Below, piece by piece: positions 4,600-17,335 of a stretch of 64,000 nucleotides of DNA. Below the pieces are notes generated by a model. It was not told where the DNA came from. It did no database searches and worked only from the letters and a program-made list of their open reading frames with translations. The stretch spans positions 128,001 to 192,000 of the forward strand of contig JAHPZI010000030.1 of the NCBI GenBank assembly GCA_019058295.1. Direction: 5' to 3'. The first letter of the stretch is position 1. Every line of letters starts with the position of its first letter. The position numbers and the translations under genes are program-made. This DNA is from Promethearchaeota archaeon (GTDB taxonomy: Archaea > Asgardarchaeota > Lokiarchaeia > Sigyniarchaeales > SOKP01).

Positions 4600-5064
4600 T
4601 TATATCAATTCCTTATTCAAAATTATTTTGCTAAAAAAAATCTCTCCATTAACAATTTCAAATGGAATTCTCTTATTTTCAATCCAATCCTCTCCAAAAA
4701 TTGTATAATATTCCCTATATTTATCATTAGATATAATAAGTCCATGATTTTCAAATGAAAGTTGTAAAACATAAAGATCTGCTTTAATCTCTTTTGGAGA
4801 GATGATTATTTCTTTTTTTTTTATATAACCAATAAATTCATCTCGCTTATCAATACAATATTTTAGTGATTCATCACAAATAATTCTATTTTGCTTAACT
4901 CCATATTTATTGAGTTTTTTTCTAATATTTAGAATATTAGAAAGTTTAGGTTTATTATTTTTATCTCTTTCTTCAAAAGCGACATTAGATCCATCAATTA
5001 TTGTATATGGATTTAATAACTCGTATTTTTTATCATTTTTACCATCAAACACTATAACTGTCAT
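4600..5064 (-). CDS. Zc3h12a/Regnase-like NYN (PIN-fold) ribonuclease
   Basis: IIDGSNVA, KADLY and IISNDKYRE match the Regnase-1/N4BP1-type NYN motifs (DGSN...D...SND.YRD). SD-like GAGGT lies upstream. Confidence 0.85.
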   Translation of the reverse strand: MTVIVFDGKNDKKYELLNPYTIIDGSNVAFEERDKNNKPKLSNILNIRKKLNKYGVKQNRIICDESLKYCIDKRDEFIGYIKKKEIIISPKEIKADLYVLQLSFENHGLIISNDKYREYYTIFGEDWIENKRIPFEIVNGEIFFSKIILNKELI

Positions 5065-5088
5065 ATATCAACCTCTCTTCGTTCGTTT

Positions 5089-7650
5089 CTATTCTCTCTC
5101 TCTTGATTGTTTCATTGCTTTTTCTAATGTGTCTCTTTTTTCAATTGCCTTTTTTCTTATATTTTTTGCTAAATTTACCAAATATTTAGATTTTGAGTTT
5201 TCTCCCAATATTATTGTGTAATCCATTAGTGTATTCAAATTTATATAAAGATTAATCAAATTCCCTGTTTTAATTGAAAAACCTGGTCTCTTCAATTTAG
5301 ATTTACTTATTTTAATGTAATATTCCATTCTCGATTCTAAATCCAGTCTATTAATTTCGTATTTTTCTAAATATTCGGGATTTTGATGATAGGATTCTGC
5401 ATTTACTATTGCTTTTAAAAATTTAAAATAAAATAAAGGAAAAATTTGTTCAAAATCAACGTAGTATTCTCCAGTAAAAAATGGGCTCGTTTCGCTCTCT
5501 TTAATGCTATCAAAATATTGCTTAAAAAGATCAAAAGAAAGTAAAAAATTGTGCTCTCTATTAAATTTAATTCTCGATGATAGTTCTATGATATCATACG
5601 CATTATCTAAAAGAATTTGAATTTTATTTGGTATTTTTTTAACCACTTTCCCATATTGTTCAATTTCTTTGATTGGATTTTCATTTAACTCAATTAAAAT
5701 CTCTTTTCTTATTAAATCTAATTTTAAAAAATTTAATTTCAATTGATTCAATTCTAAAATAATAATTTCTATAAAAGTCTGATTTTTTCGAAAATTAGGA
5801 TTTTTTTTTAATTGAGAAATGTGATAGATATCGAGATCCTCAATTCTTAAATCGTCAATAAATTTAAATTCTTCATTAATTTTATTTAGTCTAATCTTAT
5901 ATGCTGTCTGGATTTTCTTTTCTAATTCATAAACTCTTTCAGATAGATCTGAATAATCTCCTTTACATCTTTGAATTTTTAGCATCTCTACATTGAATTT
6001 AAACAAATTCCTTTCTGATTTACTCTCTATTTCATTACCCTCTGAAAAAATAATTAATGCTTTGTCCAAATTCCACATCTTAAAATAGATCTCTCCTAAA
6101 TAATAGAGAATCTGTGAATAAATAATTGATTGATCTTTTAAGGGCTCAGGATATGATGAGTATATTTTTTTAAGTATTTTCTTAGCCACATCAAATTGTC
6201 TATCAGTATAGTAGAACATTGCTTCCTCATACTCTAACATAACATCATACGATTCTTTTGTATAATCATTAGTTGCTAAACTAATCTGCGTAATATCTTT
6301 TTTAATCTTGATATAATTAATCTCTCGCTCTGGTGGGATTATTCTAAATTCTTCACCCCCTCCTGGTTTTAGCCTTTCTCTTTTCTCAAAATTATTGATT
6401 TTGGTTGCTATTTTATCGAATTTATTATAAAATGTTCCTTGAGAAACTTTTAATTGTTTTTGATATTTATCGAAAAATTCCTTTTTACTTCTAAAACCTG
6501 CATCATCATCTTCTATACCATTCTTAATATCTTTATTATATTCCTTTAAAAATAGGCTATATACTTTATCTAGAGTTAACTTCTTTTTTTTCGGTATTTT
6601 ATATTCAATTTTTTTTTCTGGAGTGAGTTTTTCATAAAGTATATCTTCAGCTTTCAAAAACAAATCTTTTCCTTTTACTAGAAAATCTTTTAGTTCATTT
6701 TCAAATGCATCATAGTAAGATTTTGGATTTAGGATATTAGAGTATCTTTCAATGATGATTTTAATTTCTTTTAGATTGTTTGCTAGAAATGAAAAGAGTT
6801 CATGAGCAGAATTATGTAATAAGTTCAAGTAAAATGCTTTAAATTCAATAGGGGGAAAGATCCTTTTCTCAGGACTGGAATTCGAAAATGGATCAAATGT
6901 TATTTCATTCTGAACGATATTATAGTAATTGTTTATTATATTCCCATATTTCAAATCATCAGATATGTAAACTTCTCTGCTAGCATACTCTTGATCTACT
7001 TCATTATACCCTAATTCGCTTAAATAATTAATAAGTTCATACATTATTATAAAAGAATGATAATATTCATTAATAAATTCCATAGAGAATTCCTGATTAG
7101 CACTTGGATAATTTACAGTCAAGTTGATTAAAATAAGAAAGTTAAAATTAATACTCTTGTTTAATCTTAAATGTAGATTAATTTTTAATGGCCCATTTTC
7201 AAAAAATTCAAAACTATAAAGATTAAATTTTTGGAATTTTGTCAAATCTTCATTGGATAGTATTCTTGGAGATTTCTTTAAAATATTCAGCTTTTCATAT
7301 TCTATATCTTTTTCTTTTAACTTATTATCTTTTATAGATTGTTCAAATGCGGAACTGATTTGACTGTGCTTTAAAACAAAATCTATAACAGATAAATTTT
7401 CTGAGTCTTTGAGAATTAACTTCCAATTTGATTTTTTCGATTGATAATTAAGATAGGAATTATAAAAATTAATCGCGTAATTATCGAGTTCCTGCCAATT
7501 ATTCTGCAAATACTGCCAGAACTCATCTAAATATAAATCTAGAAACTTTATTTCTCGCTCTTCAAATGGGATTTCTTTATTTTCTTCAATATTAACTTCG
7601 AAAATATCCTCTAAAGATTGTATAAATTTATCAATATTTTTTACCATCAT
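5089..7650 (-). CDS. Large hypothetical protein (853 aa) with a central HTH/winged-helix-like segment and TPR-like repeats
   Basis: KQLKVSQGTFYNKF...KPGGGEEFRI is HTH plus wing-like. YEEAMFYY..FDVAKKILKK and ILYYLGEIYFKMWNLDKAL are TPR-like. Confidence 0.55.
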   Translation of the reverse strand: MMVKNIDKFIQSLEDIFEVNIEENKEIPFEEREIKFLDLYLDEFWQYLQNNWQELDNYAINFYNSYLNYQSKKSNWKLILKDSENLSVIDFVLKHSQISSAFEQSIKDNKLKEKDIEYEKLNILKKSPRILSNEDLTKFQKFNLYSFEFFENGPLKINLHLRLNKSINFNFLILINLTVNYPSANQEFSMEFINEYYHSFIIMYELINYLSELGYNEVDQEYASREVYISDDLKYGNIINNYYNIVQNEITFDPFSNSSPEKRIFPPIEFKAFYLNLLHNSAHELFSFLANNLKEIKIIIERYSNILNPKSYYDAFENELKDFLVKGKDLFLKAEDILYEKLTPEKKIEYKIPKKKKLTLDKVYSLFLKEYNKDIKNGIEDDDAGFRSKKEFFDKYQKQLKVSQGTFYNKFDKIATKINNFEKRERLKPGGGEEFRIIPPEREINYIKIKKDITQISLATNDYTKESYDVMLEYEEAMFYYTDRQFDVAKKILKKIYSSYPEPLKDQSIIYSQILYYLGEIYFKMWNLDKALIIFSEGNEIESKSERNLFKFNVEMLKIQRCKGDYSDLSERVYELEKKIQTAYKIRLNKINEEFKFIDDLRIEDLDIYHISQLKKNPNFRKNQTFIEIIILELNQLKLNFLKLDLIRKEILIELNENPIKEIEQYGKVVKKIPNKIQILLDNAYDIIELSSRIKFNREHNFLLSFDLFKQYFDSIKESETSPFFTGEYYVDFEQIFPLFYFKFLKAIVNAESYHQNPEYLEKYEINRLDLESRMEYYIKISKSKLKRPGFSIKTGNLINLYINLNTLMDYTIILGENSKSKYLVNLAKNIRKKAIEKRDTLEKAMKQSRERE

Positions 7651-7810: not shown

Positions 7811-8506
7811 CTATGGAATCTTCGCTAATATACAAATAGAATTTATTTGTTTTCTATAAGTAGAATCTAATAACCAAGCTAAAATCTGTAGATAATTAAT
7901 AGCATCATTTAAATCGATTTTGGTTATTTGAGATGCCATAGATACTTTATGAGCAACATTATTCCTTTTATCAATTATCCCAGATAATAATTCTTTTATA
8001 ATATTTGTAGAGACTATTTTTTTCCATCTTCTTTGAAATCTTTTTGTTATATGTTTAAAAATATCCTTAAACCCAATTTCTTTGAAAAGATTTATTATAT
8101 GAATTGGATTAGGATTAGAACTTTGTAATTTAAAAATAGCTGGATTTATCTCATCATTAATAATAGATCTGCATGAATTTTTTATATTGGTTAAATTATT
8201 AATATTCTTTTTCATTTTAAATTGTTTTAAGGTTTTATTAACATTTGTTATTATTAAATCAGGAGGCAATTTTGAGAAATCTATAATACTCTTGTATTTT
8301 TTTATGACACTTAAATAGACATTTGATAGATTATTTAAAAATTCATTAAAAGACGCAACAATTAAAACTATTGAACCCCCTCGTAAACCATAAACATAGT
8401 TCCTATCTTTCTTCGGGGGTGGTTCTTTATAAGTATCTAATTTAATTAATGCTTTGACAATTTCTAAGGATTCAAGAAACTCATTATAGGCAATTGAATT
8501 ATTCAT
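7811..8506 (-). CDS. HEPN-domain ribonuclease (RiboL-PSP / MAE_28990-like)
   Basis: Rx4H motif RNNVAH near the C-terminus, helical IVLIVASFNEFL segment, NPN motif. Lies 7 bp downstream of the DUF262 gene. Confidence 0.85.
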   Translation of the reverse strand: MNNSIAYNEFLESLEIVKALIKLDTYKEPPPKKDRNYVYGLRGGSIVLIVASFNEFLNNLSNVYLSVIKKYKSIIDFSKLPPDLIITNVNKTLKQFKMKKNINNLTNIKNSCRSIINDEINPAIFKLQSSNPNPIHIINLFKEIGFKDIFKHITKRFQRRWKKIVSTNIIKELLSGIIDKRNNVAHKVSMASQITKIDLNDAINYLQILAWLLDSTYRKQINSICILAKIP

Positions 8507-8513
8507 TGAATAA

Positions 8514-9821
8514 TTACCTTTCTAAGGCATTCATTATTAAATTATATACTTTTTCCTTCCGTTTGAAAAAGGCAGTGGAAGAAGATATATGAAAAGAAAT
8601 AGAATCATTAAAGTCTTTATCTGAAAAAAGTTTTTTATATTCTGAAATAAAATCTTCTTTATTAAAATCATTTGGTATACTGACATTAACATCACGGTCG
8701 ACACATGCAAATATTACAGCATCAAATAATGAAGTTATCATTTTTTTCTTCCAATAACCCTTATCTTCCAACCATCTTTTAAAAGCAATTTCACCAAATA
8801 GTCTATTAATAAAATTAATAGTATTAAGAAATTTCTGTTCATATTCTTTAATTTTAGCCTCCTCCATCCTTTGATTTTTTCTAACAAAATCAGTCATTTT
8901 CCATGTAATATCTCCTGAAAAATATTTTGGATTCTCAAAGAAAGTAAAGAATCTAAGTACATACTCTACATCCTTCATCTCTTGATAAATTTTGGATTCA
9001 TTCTTATCATCTACTCCTAATAATTTGTGAAACGTTGGATTCACAGACAATCTTAGCGTCAAATCATTTAAATCTCCCGGAAAAGCACTATTCCGTATCT
9101 CTTGATCATTTAATTGTACACCTCCAGTATTTAAACGTTGAAAAACTGTATATTTAATATCTTCATCAGATTCATTGAGTATTATTATTGCCCTTAAAAC
9201 AGCTCGAGTTTTTAGATAATTTTGATATGGTAGTGGTAGATTAGAAAATGTTTTTCCATTTAATCCTTGAAATACTTTTAGACCAACCAGTTCTAATTCA
9301 TCTCTAAAAAATCTTTTAATAGAATTTAGCCTCTGTTTGCCATCTATAACAGAATATGTTCCAAAATCATCTTCATTTAAAAATATTGAAGGAACTGGAA
9401 CATTCATTATAAAGGATTCTATTAATTTCGATTGCCTTTCATCATTCCAACGAAATCTTCGTTGATATTCGGGGTGAAGATTAATTGTGTTTTTTTCTAG
9501 CAATTCTGATAATGTATTCAAGTTATAATCAACAAATTGAGTTATAAGATTACGTTGTTGATCTTTCAATGATTTCTTAATATCGATTTCAGTATTCTCT
9601 TCTGTTTCCTCATAATCAAGATCACTTTTTTGTATGTTTTCAATATAATAATCTTCTTTTGAATCTGCATTCTTGAAATTATCAAATATATCCTTTGGAA
9701 CATTTTCATAGATATGAACATCTCCACCTACAAATACAATTTTTATGATTTTACCATATGGTTCAAATCCGATTTTATCAATATTTTCAGAGATATCCTT
9801 AATATATTCCATAATCATCAC
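8514..9821 (-). CDS. KTSC domain fused to DUF262 (GmrS/ParB-like) domain
   Basis: N-terminal SENIDKIGF...IVF.GG.VH.Y.NVP..IFD.F..ADSK..YY..NI fits the KTSC pattern. PEYQRRFRW, IES..MNVPVP, VIDGKQRL and FQRLNTGG are DUF262 motifs. No C-terminal HNH (DUF1524). Confidence 0.85.
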   Translation of the reverse strand: MMIMEYIKDISENIDKIGFEPYGKIIKIVFVGGDVHIYENVPKDIFDNFKNADSKEDYYIENIQKSDLDYEETEENTEIDIKKSLKDQQRNLITQFVDYNLNTLSELLEKNTINLHPEYQRRFRWNDERQSKLIESFIMNVPVPSIFLNEDDFGTYSVIDGKQRLNSIKRFFRDELELVGLKVFQGLNGKTFSNLPLPYQNYLKTRAVLRAIIILNESDEDIKYTVFQRLNTGGVQLNDQEIRNSAFPGDLNDLTLRLSVNPTFHKLLGVDDKNESKIYQEMKDVEYVLRFFTFFENPKYFSGDITWKMTDFVRKNQRMEEAKIKEYEQKFLNTINFINRLFGEIAFKRWLEDKGYWKKKMITSLFDAVIFACVDRDVNVSIPNDFNKEDFISEYKKLFSDKDFNDSISFHISSSTAFFKRKEKVYNLIMNALER

Positions 9822-15737: not shown

Positions 15738-15871
15738 TGACTTCTCAATGTGATTTAAATAGAGTAGTTTAAAACCTTTTTTTTAAAAAATTGAATTGAT
15801 GTTAATATTCATTTTTTTTACTTTTGATAAATATTTATAAATACCGGGGTATAATTAGTTCTGTATTTATT

Positions 15872-17335
15872 ATGATTGAAAAAAAAGAGAATAATGATAT
15901 TTATTTAGATTATGAAAACCATCGTTGTATTAGCGGACATTGTAAACCAAATCAACGAGCCATTTTTGGAAAAGCTTTAAAAAATTCTCAGGGAAAAATA
16001 ACTTTCAAAAAATTTGATGTTTTTACAAGTTCTGAGTGGGGTAATTATTATGGAATTATTTATAGAATCATTGATACTAATAAGGATAATTCATTACAAA
16101 GAAGAAAATTTTACATCGGGAGAACAATCCAAAAGCTAAAAGAGAGGTTTAGACAACATTTCAAAAGTCCTCCAAATTCTTTTCTTGCCAAAGCTTTTGC
16201 TCGTTATAATAAAAGATTTACAATTGTTGAAAATGGGATAATAAATGACTCAATGTCATACAGAACTAAAGGTGGTGAATTTATTATTGAAGTACTTAAA
16301 TATTGTATCGATGTCGATTCAATTAATAAAAATGAAATCGACGAAATTGAACGCCATCAATCATGGATTACTAAATATGGTACTCATTATGGTTATAATA
16401 TAAATAGAGGTGGAGGAGATCGTGGGGTTCCTAAGGAAGGGCAAAAGGGCGAAGATCACTATAGATGGATAAATATAGATGAAGGTTTATTAATTCAATT
16501 AATTCAAAAAGGATTATTATTGGATGAAATCGCAGGTGAATTTGGTACATCAACTCCTACGATTGAAAGAAGAATTAGGGATTTTAAAATTAAATATAGT
16601 GTAAAAAATATAACTGAAGCCAGAAAATTATTTGGCGGGGAACAAAAAGCCAATAAAAGGAGAAGTTATATTAATTCAATGGCTCATCCAAATAAAAAAA
16701 TAATCTTAGATGAAGATATGATTGAACAAATTGAACTATTAAAAACCAGATTAGAAATTCAAAAAATTCTAAAAATAGGGCATGTCCAATTTTATGATAA
16801 GTTGAATGAAATGGGATATGAAGGGTTAGATGATATTCGAGATGATCTGGGTGTATTAGAAGATTATAAAAAACAGTATGCAGAGAGATTGAGCAGATCA
16901 TTGTCAAAAGATGTTGATATAGATAAATTTATCGAAGCGATTATATCTGGTTTAAATAAAGAGGAGCTAGAAGAAAAATTTGGAATTGGTGATATATTGT
17001 TTTATAAGACATTAAAAAAGATTGGATACGATAGTCTTCCTATTGCTAGAAAGGATTTAGGTGGGCAATTAAATTTTGAATTTCGAAGATATATAAAATA
17101 TTCTAAACATGTTTTAGAAGCTTTGAATGTTCTTTTGAAAAATAATAAAGATTTTACAGCACAAATGCTTGGTGAAAGTTTAAATATATCAGAAAACGGT
17201 GCTTACCATCATATATCAAAACATTTAATACGTTATGGATTAGTTGAAGAACTCCCAAATCAAGAATATAGAAAAAAAAGACGATATAGATTAACTAATT
17301 TTGGGAATGAATTATTGTATAAGCTATTTTCTTAG
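15872..17335 (+). CDS. Free-standing GIY-YIG endonuclease with tandem HTH repeats and C-terminal winged helix
   Basis: GIIYRI...FYIGRT, R..QH, E, GYNINRGG; three HTH-like repeats; MarR-like wHTH ending RYRLTNFG. Likely ATG at 15872. Confidence 0.85.
   Translation: MIEKKENNDIYLDYENHRCISGHCKPNQRAIFGKALKNSQGKITFKKFDVFTSSEWGNYYGIIYRIIDTNKDNSLQRRKFYIGRTIQKLKERFRQHFKSPPNSFLAKAFARYNKRFTIVENGIINDSMSYRTKGGEFIIEVLKYCIDVDSINKNEIDEIERHQSWITKYGTHYGYNINRGGGDRGVPKEGQKGEDHYRWINIDEGLLIQLIQKGLLLDEIAGEFGTSTPTIERRIRDFKIKYSVKNITEARKLFGGEQKANKRRSYINSMAHPNKKIILDEDMIEQIELLKTRLEIQKILKIGHVQFYDKLNEMGYEGLDDIRDDLGVLEDYKKQYAERLSRSLSKDVDIDKFIEAIISGLNKEELEEKFGIGDILFYKTLKKIGYDSLPIARKDLGGQLNFEFRRYIKYSKHVLEALNVLLKNNKDFTAQMLGESLNISENGAYHHISKHLIRYGLVEELPNQEYRKKRRYRLTNFGNELLYKLFS

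What the first reader, a model, noticed from the sequence alone, without database searches (positions are those of the whole stretch)
7811..9821. KTSC-DUF262 fusion paired with a HEPN RNase: candidate archaeal antiviral system
Seen: a two-gene operon (7-bp gap). The DUF262 protein has intact QR, DGxQR and FxxxN motifs, carries an N-terminal ~60-aa KTSC domain on an acidic linker, and has no HNH domain. The partner has an intact RNNVAH motif. Established: DUF262 (GmrS/ParB-like NTPase) plus HEPN gene pairs are associated with defence, and KTSC is a small single-stranded nucleic-acid-binding domain. Inference: KTSC could act as a sensor or substrate-recruiting module that lets the NTPase activate the HEPN toxin. 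I do not recognise this fusion from described systems.
Basis: partly seen in the sequence, partly recalled or inferred. Interest (0 to 1): 0.78.

Follow-up and report, generated by a model that had tools for sequence, protein, structure and literature searches.

The report
KTSC-tagged DUF262–HEPN defence gene pair
An Asgard (Promethearchaeota) archaeon carries a mobile two-gene module, a ParB-like NTPase plus a HEPN RNase, of a widespread type already shown to block phage in E. coli; its only new feature is a small KTSC domain fused to the NTPase.

Summary
Two minus-strand genes lie 7 bp apart. The first is a 435-aa protein with an N-terminal KTSC domain, an acidic linker, a DUF262/GmrSD_N NTPase domain with intact QRRFRW, DGKQR and FQRLN motifs, and a helical C-terminal domain with no HNH/DUF1524. 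The second is a 231-aa RiboL-PSP-type HEPN protein with RNNVAH.

The core pair is not new. A DUF262 gene followed by a RiboL-PSP HEPN gene was found in 43/43 genome loci and 42/43 metagenome loci of close relatives, across bacteria and methanogens. It also occurs on an E. coli IncF plasmid and in a P2-like phage. It has the same domain make-up as the validated E. coli system PD-T4-2, and the operon type was noted in 2013.

The new part is the KTSC fusion. It forms one clade of 19 protein clusters (48–86% identity), and every named or taxon-assigned source is a Promethearchaeota genome. The partner HEPN is always present and the flanks always differ. I found no paper that mentions KTSC together with DUF262.

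KTSC's role is not settled. The domain is net acidic in all 18 fused proteins examined. Its fold also matches the C-terminal arm of a HerA defence ATPase. It is therefore not an established single-stranded nucleic-acid binder.

Verdict: a new variant of a known kind, of moderate interest.

The parts
8514..9821 (-). Gene 1: KTSC-DUF262 fusion protein (435 aa from GTG 9821; probably starts at ATG 9818 or 9812, as its homologs do)
   Evidence: ORF; Pfam KTSC + GmrSD_N; PADLOC NsnA E 7e-71 and PD-T4-2_A E 3.8e-39; AF2 mean pLDDT 88.3
9627..9791 (-). KTSC domain (aa 11-65; the fold spans aa 1-73)
   Evidence: PF13619 45.7 bits; same place found by genome search; phmmer to PDB 7x8c E 5e-4; VIA Z 13.0 to 4rgi and 12.4 to 7x8c; net charge -5
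9525..9626 (-). Acidic, low-confidence linker (aa 66-99)
   Evidence: pLDDT 57-62 for residues 71-90; 10 D/E against 4 K/R over aa 65-100; net negative in all 18 fused homologs
9081..9512 (-). DUF262/GmrSD_N ParB-like NTPase domain with QRRFRW (9447-9464), DGKQR (9330-9344) and FQRLN (9129-9143)
   Evidence: Pfam E 5e-28; motifs read and invariant in 51 relatives; fold matches ParB/Noc/KorB/sulfiredoxin Z 5-7, SspE Z 7.0, BrxU Z 9.1
8517..9080 (-). Helical C-terminal domain (aa 248-435), NsnA-C/ParBDB-like; no HNH/DUF1524
   Evidence: PADLOC NsnA model is covered to position 383/385; the BrxU alignment runs to model residue 431; the ParBDB concept comes from PMC12065111; no DUF1524 hit
7811..8506 (-). 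Gene 2: RiboL-PSP-type HEPN protein (231 aa), predicted RNase effector; Rx4H = RNNVAH at 7949-7966
   Evidence: Pfam PF18735 E 4.1e-14; R181/A185/H186 invariant in 43 partners; AF2 pLDDT 95.4; ten of the top eleven VIA-wide hits are entries titled HEPN or long known as HEPN-domain proteins, Z 8.7-9.9
8507..8513 (-). 7-nt intergenic spacer (operon junction)
   Evidence: Sequence; the same 7-nt gap occurs in L001, L002, L091, L092 and L093, and 13 nt in L094

Best explanation
This is a self-contained, horizontally mobile two-gene defence module of the PD-T4-2 type. Gene 1 is an NsnA-like DUF262 protein: a ParB-fold NTPase plus a helical DNA-binding-type C-terminal domain. It is the sensor or switch. 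Gene 2 is a RiboL-PSP-family HEPN protein, the RNase effector. Proposed mechanism (inferred by analogy with SspE, GmrSD/BrxU and the Menshen model): the DUF262 protein holds the HEPN RNase inactive. When it recognises a feature of the invader, most likely foreign or modified DNA, NTP binding or hydrolysis at the DGKQR pocket changes its conformation. This releases or activates the HEPN dimer, which cuts RNA (tRNA, rRNA or mRNA) and stops virus production, possibly at the cost of the cell. In one lineage circulating in Promethearchaeota, a ~65-aa acidic KTSC domain was fused once, through a flexible acidic linker, to the N-terminus of the DUF262 protein. It is most likely an accessory input or regulatory module, comparable to the N-terminal 'sensor' domains of type II Menshen NsnA. 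Shown here: the domains, motifs and folds; the obligate gene pairing; the co-divergence of the partners; the single origin of the fusion; and the patchy, mobile distribution. Inferred: antiviral function in archaea, RNA cleavage, the direction of control, and the role of KTSC.
For: Domains and motifs. Gene pairing: a PF18735 HEPN gene lies immediately downstream in 43/43 close genome loci and 21/26 distant ones, and in 42/43 metagenome loci. Percent identity of the two partners correlates at r = 0.96. Validated relative: PD-T4-2 is DUF262 plus PF18735, and deleting it in ECOR65 restores T4 plaquing. Our protein matches the PD-T4-2_A HMM at 3.8e-39. Mobility and defence context: only the two genes are shared among seven KTSC-fused loci, and the flanks differ. 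Within the phylum 10/400 genomes carry a homolog, and 0/9 species of the window's own genus do. L092 sits beside an SNF2/PLD helicase plus an Eco57I-type methylase. Similar pairs lie on an E. coli IncF plasmid next to ccdAB/pemIK and in a tail-gene hotspot of a P2-like Klebsiella phage. Single fusion event: the KTSC clade has SH-aLRT 99 and is nested among KTSC-less bacterial and methanogen sequences. Folds. Precedent for variable N-terminal domains on NsnA-like DUF262 proteins: 33 families in PMC12065111.
Against: There is no functional datum for any archaeal member. The HEPN partner matches no PADLOC model, including PD-T4-2_B, so it is not a close ortholog of the validated system. L001 and L002 sit among housekeeping genes, not in recognisable defence islands. 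The KTSC domain and linker are net acidic in all 18 members, which fits direct nucleic-acid sensing poorly. The mechanism of PD-T4-2 itself is unpublished in the library I searched. No physical interaction between the two proteins could be modelled here.
Confidence: 0.72

Rival explanations
1. KTSC is not a sensor but an assembly arm. It reaches across to a neighbouring subunit, or to the HEPN dimer, and sets the oligomeric state of the complex, as the C-terminal arm of Paenibacillus HerA does in the SIR2-HerA defence complex.
For: Model residues 1-72 superpose on HerA residues 612-696 of 8wld/8wof/8wiv/8wj3 (Z 10.1-11.1, rmsd 2.2-2.3 A, 69 residues aligned, 22% identity). That region lies in the 'C-terminal arm domain (aa 576-696)', which the authors say stabilises the split-spiral hexamer through contacts in trans. 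The KTSC domain is acidic and sits on a flexible tether.
Against: The trans contacts described in the paper involve helices alpha19-20 and their linker, and it is unclear whether these lie in the KTSC-like part. More than 1000 KTSC-less relatives evidently assemble without it. The KTSC domain evolves faster than the core: 44% against 71% identity between subclades, and dN/dS 0.20-0.99 against 0.18-0.58. That is more typical of a specificity module than of a structural one.
Confidence: 0.3
2. KTSC is a nucleic-acid-binding sensor. It captures viral ssDNA or RNA and thereby switches on the NTPase and the HEPN RNase.
For: The comparative-genomics literature calls KTSC DNA-binding or RNA-binding. 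N-terminal nucleic-acid-binding sensor domains are common on NsnA-like proteins. A related PF18735-class HEPN system, DARNA/PD-T7-3, is activated by SSB-bound ssDNA.
Against: I found no binding assay for KTSC. Net charge is -3 to -9 in all 18 fused KTSC domains, and the linker is also acidic. The nearest language-model clusters are stand-alone KTSC proteins, mostly viral, which says nothing about the ligand and scores below the trust level.
Confidence: 0.3
3. The acidic KTSC plus acidic linker is an autoinhibitory nucleic-acid mimic. It occupies the DNA-binding groove of the ParB-like body until displaced, in the way sigma-70 region 1.1 works.
For: Charge is consistently negative and the tether is flexible. 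Sigma-70 region-1.1-like domains are among the N-terminal modules reported on NsnA.
Against: This is purely inferential. No coordinates or PAE were available to test docking. KTSC is a beta-rich fold unrelated to region 1.1.
Confidence: 0.12
4. The pair is a toxin-antitoxin-like addiction module (HEPN toxin, DUF262 antitoxin) that stabilises mobile DNA and has no antiviral role.
For: It is a two-gene operon with a HEPN RNase. It occurs on conjugative plasmids next to ccdAB and pemIK. Its distribution is patchy.
Against: A system with the same two Pfam families gives phage defence in its native host. The upstream protein is a large NTPase with three invariant catalytic motifs, unlike typical antitoxins. 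The TA and Abi-defence roles do not exclude each other.
Confidence: 0.1
5. The module is part of a larger four-gene system together with the downstream 853-aa TPR/wHTH protein and the NYN RNase (4600-7650).
For: The genes are co-oriented and adjacent, and the NYN domain is real (PF11977, E 3e-8).
Against: Neither gene has a homolog beside the module in L001, L002, L091, L092, L093 or L094. A 160-nt AT-rich spacer separates them from the HEPN gene.
Confidence: 0.04

Closest known systems
PD-T4-2 (E. coli ECOR65; Vassallo et al. 2022, PMC9519451)
   Same: Two-gene system. Gene A is DUF262/GmrSD_N without DUF1524, and the other component carries PF18735 (RiboL-PSP HEPN). The PD-T4-2_A HMM matches aa 104-414 at E 3.8e-39.
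   Different: The HEPN partner does not match PADLOC PD-T4-2_B. The host is archaeal. An extra N-terminal KTSC domain and acidic linker are present. The mechanism of PD-T4-2 is itself unknown.
Ribo L-PSP-HEPN 'operon with ParB' (Anantharaman et al. 2013, PMC3710099)
   Same: The same HEPN family and the same operon partner class.
   Different: That entry lists bacteria only and does not mention KTSC.
Menshen NsnABC, especially type II with N-terminal sensor domains on NsnA (Li et al. 2025, PMC12065111)
   Same: The DUF262 protein matches the NsnA HMM end to end (E 7e-71, model positions 17-383 of 385). The layout is the same, ParB-DUF262 plus a helical C-terminal domain, and extra N-terminal modules are added in some lineages.
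   Different: There is no NsnB ATPase and no NsnC inPIN-nuclease. The effector is a HEPN RNase encoded immediately downstream. KTSC is not among the 33 N-terminal families named.
GmrSD / BrxU / SspE (type IV restriction and PT-sensing)
   Same: DUF262 NTPase domain with QR, DGxQR and FxxxN motifs. The fold matches BrxU at Z 9.1 and SspE at Z 7.0.
   Different: There is no DUF1524 His-Me nuclease domain. The effector is a separate RNase, not a fused DNase.
KTSC-fold C-terminal arm of HerA in Paenibacillus SIR2-HerA (PDB 8WLD; PMC11472057)
   Same: A KTSC-like fold appended through a linker to an NTPase of an antiphage system (Z 11.1, 22% identity).
   Different: The ATPase family is different, the domain is C-terminal rather than N-terminal, and the authors do not call it KTSC.
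DARNA / PD-T7-3 (bioRxiv 10.64898/2026.02.22.705581)
   Same: A defence HEPN RNase with an Rx4H motif, listed under PF18735 in the review. It cleaves tRNA anticodon loops when activated, which gives a plausible target class for this HEPN.
   Different: It is a single protein with its own C-terminal sensor domain and no DUF262 partner.

Membership tests
PD-T4-2-type system | Component A: DUF262/GmrSD_N protein lacking DUF1524 | tested here: met
   PF03235 E 5e-28, no DUF1524; PD-T4-2_A HMM E 3.8e-39
PD-T4-2-type system | Adjacent component carrying PF18735 (RiboL-PSP HEPN) | tested here: met
   PF18735 E 4.1e-14, 7-nt gap; PF18735 is assigned to PD-T4-2 in PMC10952713
PD-T4-2-type system | Component B matches the PADLOC PD-T4-2_B model | tested here: not met
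   No PADLOC hit at E<=10. The same holds for 7 other partners, including E. coli plasmid and Klebsiella phage ones, so the model appears narrow
PD-T4-2-type system | Protects against virus infection | not testable with these tools
   Needs an experiment
Menshen (NsnABC) | NsnA: ParB-DUF262 plus ParBDB C-terminal domain | tested here: met
   NsnA HMM E 7e-71 over aa 61-433
Menshen (NsnABC) | NsnB ATPase gene immediately downstream of NsnA | tested here: not met
   The downstream gene is a 231-aa HEPN. The next is an 853-aa TPR-like protein with no ATPase domain
Menshen (NsnABC) | NsnC inPIN-nuclease effector as third gene | tested here: not met
   No such gene in the operon
GmrSD/BrxU/SspE | DUF262 fused or paired with a DUF1524 His-Me (HNH-like) nuclease | tested here: not met
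   No DUF1524 in either protein at E<=0.1; the C-terminus is all-helical
KTSC (PF13619) | Sequence match above the curated cut-off | tested here: met
   45.7 bits against 25; 48.6 bits in the genome search; all 19 clusters are annotated PF13619
KTSC (PF13619) | KTSC fold | tested here: met
   Z 13.0, rmsd 1.6 A over 71 residues to 4rgi; Z 12.4, rmsd 1.4 A over 69 residues to 7x8c
   No assay found. The literature labels are predictions. The domain is net acidic here
HEPN superfamily | Rx4-6H catalytic motif | tested here: met
   RNNVAH; R181 and H186 invariant in 43 partners
HEPN superfamily | Four-helix HEPN core fold | tested here: met
   Ten of the eleven best of 48,161 chains are entries titled HEPN or long known as HEPN-domain proteins (TT1696, HEPN-MNT toxins, sacsin HEPN, AF_0298 and others), Z 8.7-9.9. 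These Z values are modest for helical bundles
HEPN-MNT toxin-antitoxin | Adjacent minimal nucleotidyltransferase antitoxin | tested here: not met
   The partner is DUF262; no NTase domain

The most novel reading that the evidence does not exclude
In Promethearchaeota, the KTSC domain turns a generic DUF262-HEPN module into one that is gated by a protein or protein-nucleic-acid cue from Asgard viruses. For example, it could bind or mimic the small stand-alone KTSC proteins that are common in viruses. Alternatively it could act as a tethered acidic autoinhibitor. Either way KTSC would be a previously unrecognised, reusable regulatory module of defence NTPases, since it is also seen on a HerA.
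Probability: 0.2. Interest if true: 0.6.

Novelty: new variant of a known kind. Interest (0 to 1): 0.38.

Why it matters
The finding adds an archaeal, domain-extended branch to the PD-T4-2 / DUF262-HEPN class. That class is very widespread: more than 1000 homolog clusters, across bacteria, methanogens, plasmids and phages. It is mechanistically uncharacterised, and its HEPN partner matched no PADLOC v2.0.0 model here, so it may go unreported by such annotation. The finding also links the little-studied KTSC fold to two unrelated defence NTPases, DUF262 here and HerA in SIR2-HerA. That gives a concrete, testable handle on what KTSC does. It does not reveal a new kind of immunity.

Tried and rejected
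Genomic context was obtained instead through the search for related loci and the genome search.

2. The search for longer or fused forms (763-2175 aa) found none. This is weak evidence.

3. Foldseek against PDB gave no significant match for the HEPN model. VIA-wide was needed.

4. The profile of HEPN partners against PDB sequences gave only noise, E >= 0.15.

5. L137 (457 aa, 55% GC) looked like a divergent KTSC fusion by BLAST coordinates. It has no KTSC by Pfam or by my clade HMM; its N-terminus is a low-complexity extension.

6. Other long N-termini in Actinomycetota relatives (L003, L014, L042, L046, L107) and in P0080 and L157 carry no Pfam domain.

7. Split form (a stand-alone KTSC gene next to a KTSC-less module): not found in any fetched locus with the clade HMM, nor in 5 whole genomes with PF13619.

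8. Four-gene system including the NYN RNase: rejected for lack of conservation.

9. Menshen: rejected, no NsnB or NsnC.

10. I could not retrieve the genuine E. coli PD-T4-2 sequences for a direct pairwise comparison. The E. coli plasmid pair found (L178) is another member of the class, not PD-T4-2 itself.

11. The supplement of the Menshen paper is not held.

12. dN/dS estimates are rough. dS is unusually low relative to dN in these AT-rich genes, and the KTSC region has only 64 codons.

13. No model coordinates or PAE were available, so docking of KTSC onto the body could not be examined.
Full report
**1. What is there**

On the minus strand, ORF 8514-9821 (435 aa) and ORF 7811-8506 (231 aa) are separated by 7 nt, TAA-ttattca-ATG.

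Upstream lies a 263-nt AT-rich spacer. Downstream, a 160-nt AT-rich spacer precedes the next gene. The operon therefore consists of two genes.

Pfam assigns protein 1 a KTSC domain (aa 11-65, 45.7 bits, cut-off 25) and a GmrSD_N/DUF262 domain (aa 104-247, E 5e-28). Protein 2 is HEPN_RiboL-PSP (E 4.1e-14). No DUF1524/HNH is detected.

I read the motifs directly from the DNA: QRRFRW, DGKQR, FQRLN and RNNVAH. Their key residues are invariant across 51 DUF262 relatives and 43 HEPN partners.

**2. Structure predictions**

AlphaFold2 on a 51-sequence alignment gives mean pLDDT 88.3 for protein 1. Only the linker (residues 71-90) is of low confidence.

- Residues 1-73 superpose on the two solved KTSC proteins: 4rgi at Z 13.0 and rmsd 1.6 A, and 7x8c at Z 12.4 and rmsd 1.4 A.
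- The body matches BrxU (Z 9.1), SspE (Z 7.0) and ParB/Noc/KorB/sulfiredoxin (Z 5-7).

Protein 2 models at pLDDT 95.4 as an all-helical protein. Foldseek found nothing significant for it. In an exhaustive alignment to 48,161 chains, ten of the eleven best were entries titled HEPN or long known as HEPN-domain proteins, at Z 8.7-9.9. These scores are modest for a helical bundle, but they agree with the Pfam hit and the motif.

**3. What the core is**

PADLOC matches protein 1 to NsnA of Menshen (E 7e-71, end to end) and to PD-T4-2_A (E 3.8e-39). Protein 2 matches nothing.

Menshen requires an NsnB ATPase and an NsnC nuclease (PMC12065111), and both are absent here. The pairing of DUF262 with a RiboL-PSP HEPN is the make-up of PD-T4-2. 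The 2023 review lists PD-T4-2 under both DUF262 and PF18735, and deleting it in its native strain ECOR65 restores T4 plaquing. The operon type 'Ribo L-PSP-HEPN ... operon with ParB' was already tabulated in 2013.

**4. How general the pairing is**

The protein search returned 1494 homolog clusters among the candidates scored. About 375-aa KTSC-less proteins share ~50% identity with the core.

- In 79 genome loci, I located the gene immediately downstream of the DUF262 gene. All 43 partners of the close relatives, the window's own included, match PF18735, as do 21 of 26 partners of distant relatives.
- In metagenome loci with enough downstream sequence, 42 of 43 have the adjacent HEPN. The exception has a truncated DUF262 gene.
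- Percent identity of the two partners to the window's proteins correlates at r = 0.96, so the genes travel and diverge together.

Hosts span Actinomycetota, Bacteroidota, Planctomycetota, Acidobacteriota, Methanothrix, Methanoregula and others.

The pair also occurs on an E. coli IncF conjugative plasmid next to ccdAB and pemIK. It is also found between tail genes of a P2-like Klebsiella phage, a known position for defence cargo.

None of the HEPN partners tested hits a PADLOC model. This class is probably under-reported by current annotation.

**5. What is specific to this locus**

Nineteen protein clusters (48-86% identity) carry KTSC plus DUF262.

- The two named genome records are Promethearchaeota MAGs.
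- All DNA loci with the fusion have 26-31% GC, like the window.
- In seven fused loci (window, L001, L002, L091-L094), the two genes and their short spacer (7 nt, or 13 nt in L094) are conserved, while every flanking gene differs.
- Flanks range from housekeeping genes (L001, L002) to an SNF2/PLD helicase plus an Eco57I-type methylase (L092) and a GIY-YIG protein (L091).

Among 400 genomes of the phylum, 10 have any homolog and only 3 have the fusion. Those 3 are in different genera, and none of the 9 other species of the window's genus has it.

On a maximum-likelihood tree built from core columns only, the fused proteins form one clade (SH-aLRT 99). It is sister, at support 93, to a Bacteroidota-rich clade and nested among KTSC-less sequences. 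KTSC-less copies from other Asgard genomes fall elsewhere.

The simplest reading is a single fusion event in a module that then spread horizontally among Promethearchaeota.

KTSC is otherwise rare in that archaeal family: 7 of 135 genomes, three of which are this fusion. No stand-alone KTSC gene lies next to KTSC-less modules.

**6. What KTSC may do**

I found no assay. The papers found here (all from one research group) call it 'DNA-binding' in one and 'RNA-binding' in another.

Three observations bear on its role:

- **Charge.** The KTSC domain is net negative (-3 to -9) in all 18 fused proteins, and so is the linker.
- **Rate of change.** It evolves faster than the NTPase domain: 44% against 71% identity between the two subclades, and dN/dS 0.20-0.99 against 0.18-0.58 (rough estimates from small counts).
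- **Structural match.** The fold matches residues 612-696 of the Paenibacillus HerA subunit in the SIR2-HerA antiphage complex (Z 11.1, 22% identity). That region lies within the 'C-terminal arm domain', which the authors report stabilises the hexamer in trans. They do not name it KTSC.

The Aravind group also notes KTSC genes associated with HerA-like ATPases.

KTSC thus recurs on defence NTPases, but its role could be sensing, assembly or autoinhibition. I rank sensing and assembly about equally, with autoinhibition lower.

The Menshen study gives the best precedent. There, 23% of NsnA proteins carry one of at least 33 N-terminal domain families, interpreted as extra sensors. KTSC is not among them.

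**7. Mechanism**

Shown here:
- the domain architecture, catalytic motifs and folds;
- the obligate pairing and co-divergence of the two genes;
- mobility of the module.

Inferred by analogy with SspE and GmrSD/BrxU (NTPase-coupled sensing that activates a nuclease) and with HEPN defence RNases such as DARNA:
- the DUF262 protein senses invader DNA;
- through NTP binding or hydrolysis it licenses the HEPN dimer to cut RNA and halt infection;
- KTSC modulates the input or the assembly.

**8. Verdict**

This is a real, well-supported candidate defence module. Its core belongs to a known, validated and very widespread class. The KTSC fusion is a lineage-restricted variant that I could not find described.

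Novelty: new variant of a known kind. Interest: moderate (0.38). It would be higher only if KTSC proves to be a general regulatory module of defence NTPases.

**Limits**
- No co-folding, PAE or coordinates were available.
- PD-T4-2 itself could not be fetched for direct comparison.

Noticed in passing
L056:6064-7321 (same DNA as L085, genome G149, same archaeal family): A 5'-truncated relic of the module. Only the C-terminal half of the DUF262 gene remains (177 aa, equal to query aa 235-432, 55-57% identity), with no trace of the KTSC or NTPase parts upstream. An intact 236-aa HEPN gene follows (46% identity).
   Followed up: partly
PDB 8WLD/8WOF/8WIV/8WJ3, HerA residues 612-696 (compared with window aa 1-72, 9606-9821): The C-terminal 'arm domain' of Paenibacillus sp. 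453MF HerA in the SIR2-HerA antiphage complex has a KTSC-like fold (Z 10.1-11.1, 22% identity). The paper does not use the name KTSC.
   Followed up: partly
window 4600-7650: A NYN (Zc3h12a-like) RNase of 154 aa and an 853-aa protein with weak TPR hits lie just downstream of the module. Neither has a homolog beside the module in any of six related loci, so they are not part of it. They may be a separate system.
   Followed up: partly
L092:8165-13244 and L092:2456-3544: In the closest metagenomic relative (86% identity), the module sits next to a 1057-aa SNF2/PLD-domain helicase and a 633-aa Eco57I-type methylase on the opposite strand. A ParB_N protein lies upstream. This is a defence-island-like context.
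   Followed up: no
window 15824-17335 and L091:2575-4548: Related proteins (27% identity over 404 aa) lie within a few kb of the module in both the window and L091; only the L091 copy was scanned and hit GIY-YIG (E 2.9e-6), the window copy matched only a weak HTH domain. They may be mobile-element or homing functions linked to the variable region.
   Followed up: no
L178:3055-4650 (E. coli plasmid pRHB06-C20_2) and L179:2519-4422 (Klebsiella phage ST16-OXA48phi5.4): DUF262 plus PF18735 HEPN pairs occur on an IncF conjugative plasmid beside ccdAB/pemIK and in a P2-like phage between tail genes. The HEPN partners (180 and 220 aa) are annotated only as hypothetical proteins and match no PADLOC model.
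   Followed up: partly
L045, L048, L049, L050, L052, L053 (mainly Streptomyces/Frankia; L050 is a Halomonadaceae genome): In this subclade the downstream partner is longer (312-317 aa). At least one (L045) has no Pfam hit, although the alignment keeps the R...H positions. It may be a divergent or extended HEPN.
   Followed up: no
window 8514-9821 against L091, L001, L002 and L093: Synonymous divergence is unusually low relative to non-synonymous divergence (for example dS 0.14-0.25 with dN 0.04-0.14). This is probably compositional constraint in these ~28% GC genes, and it makes dN/dS unreliable here.
   Followed up: no
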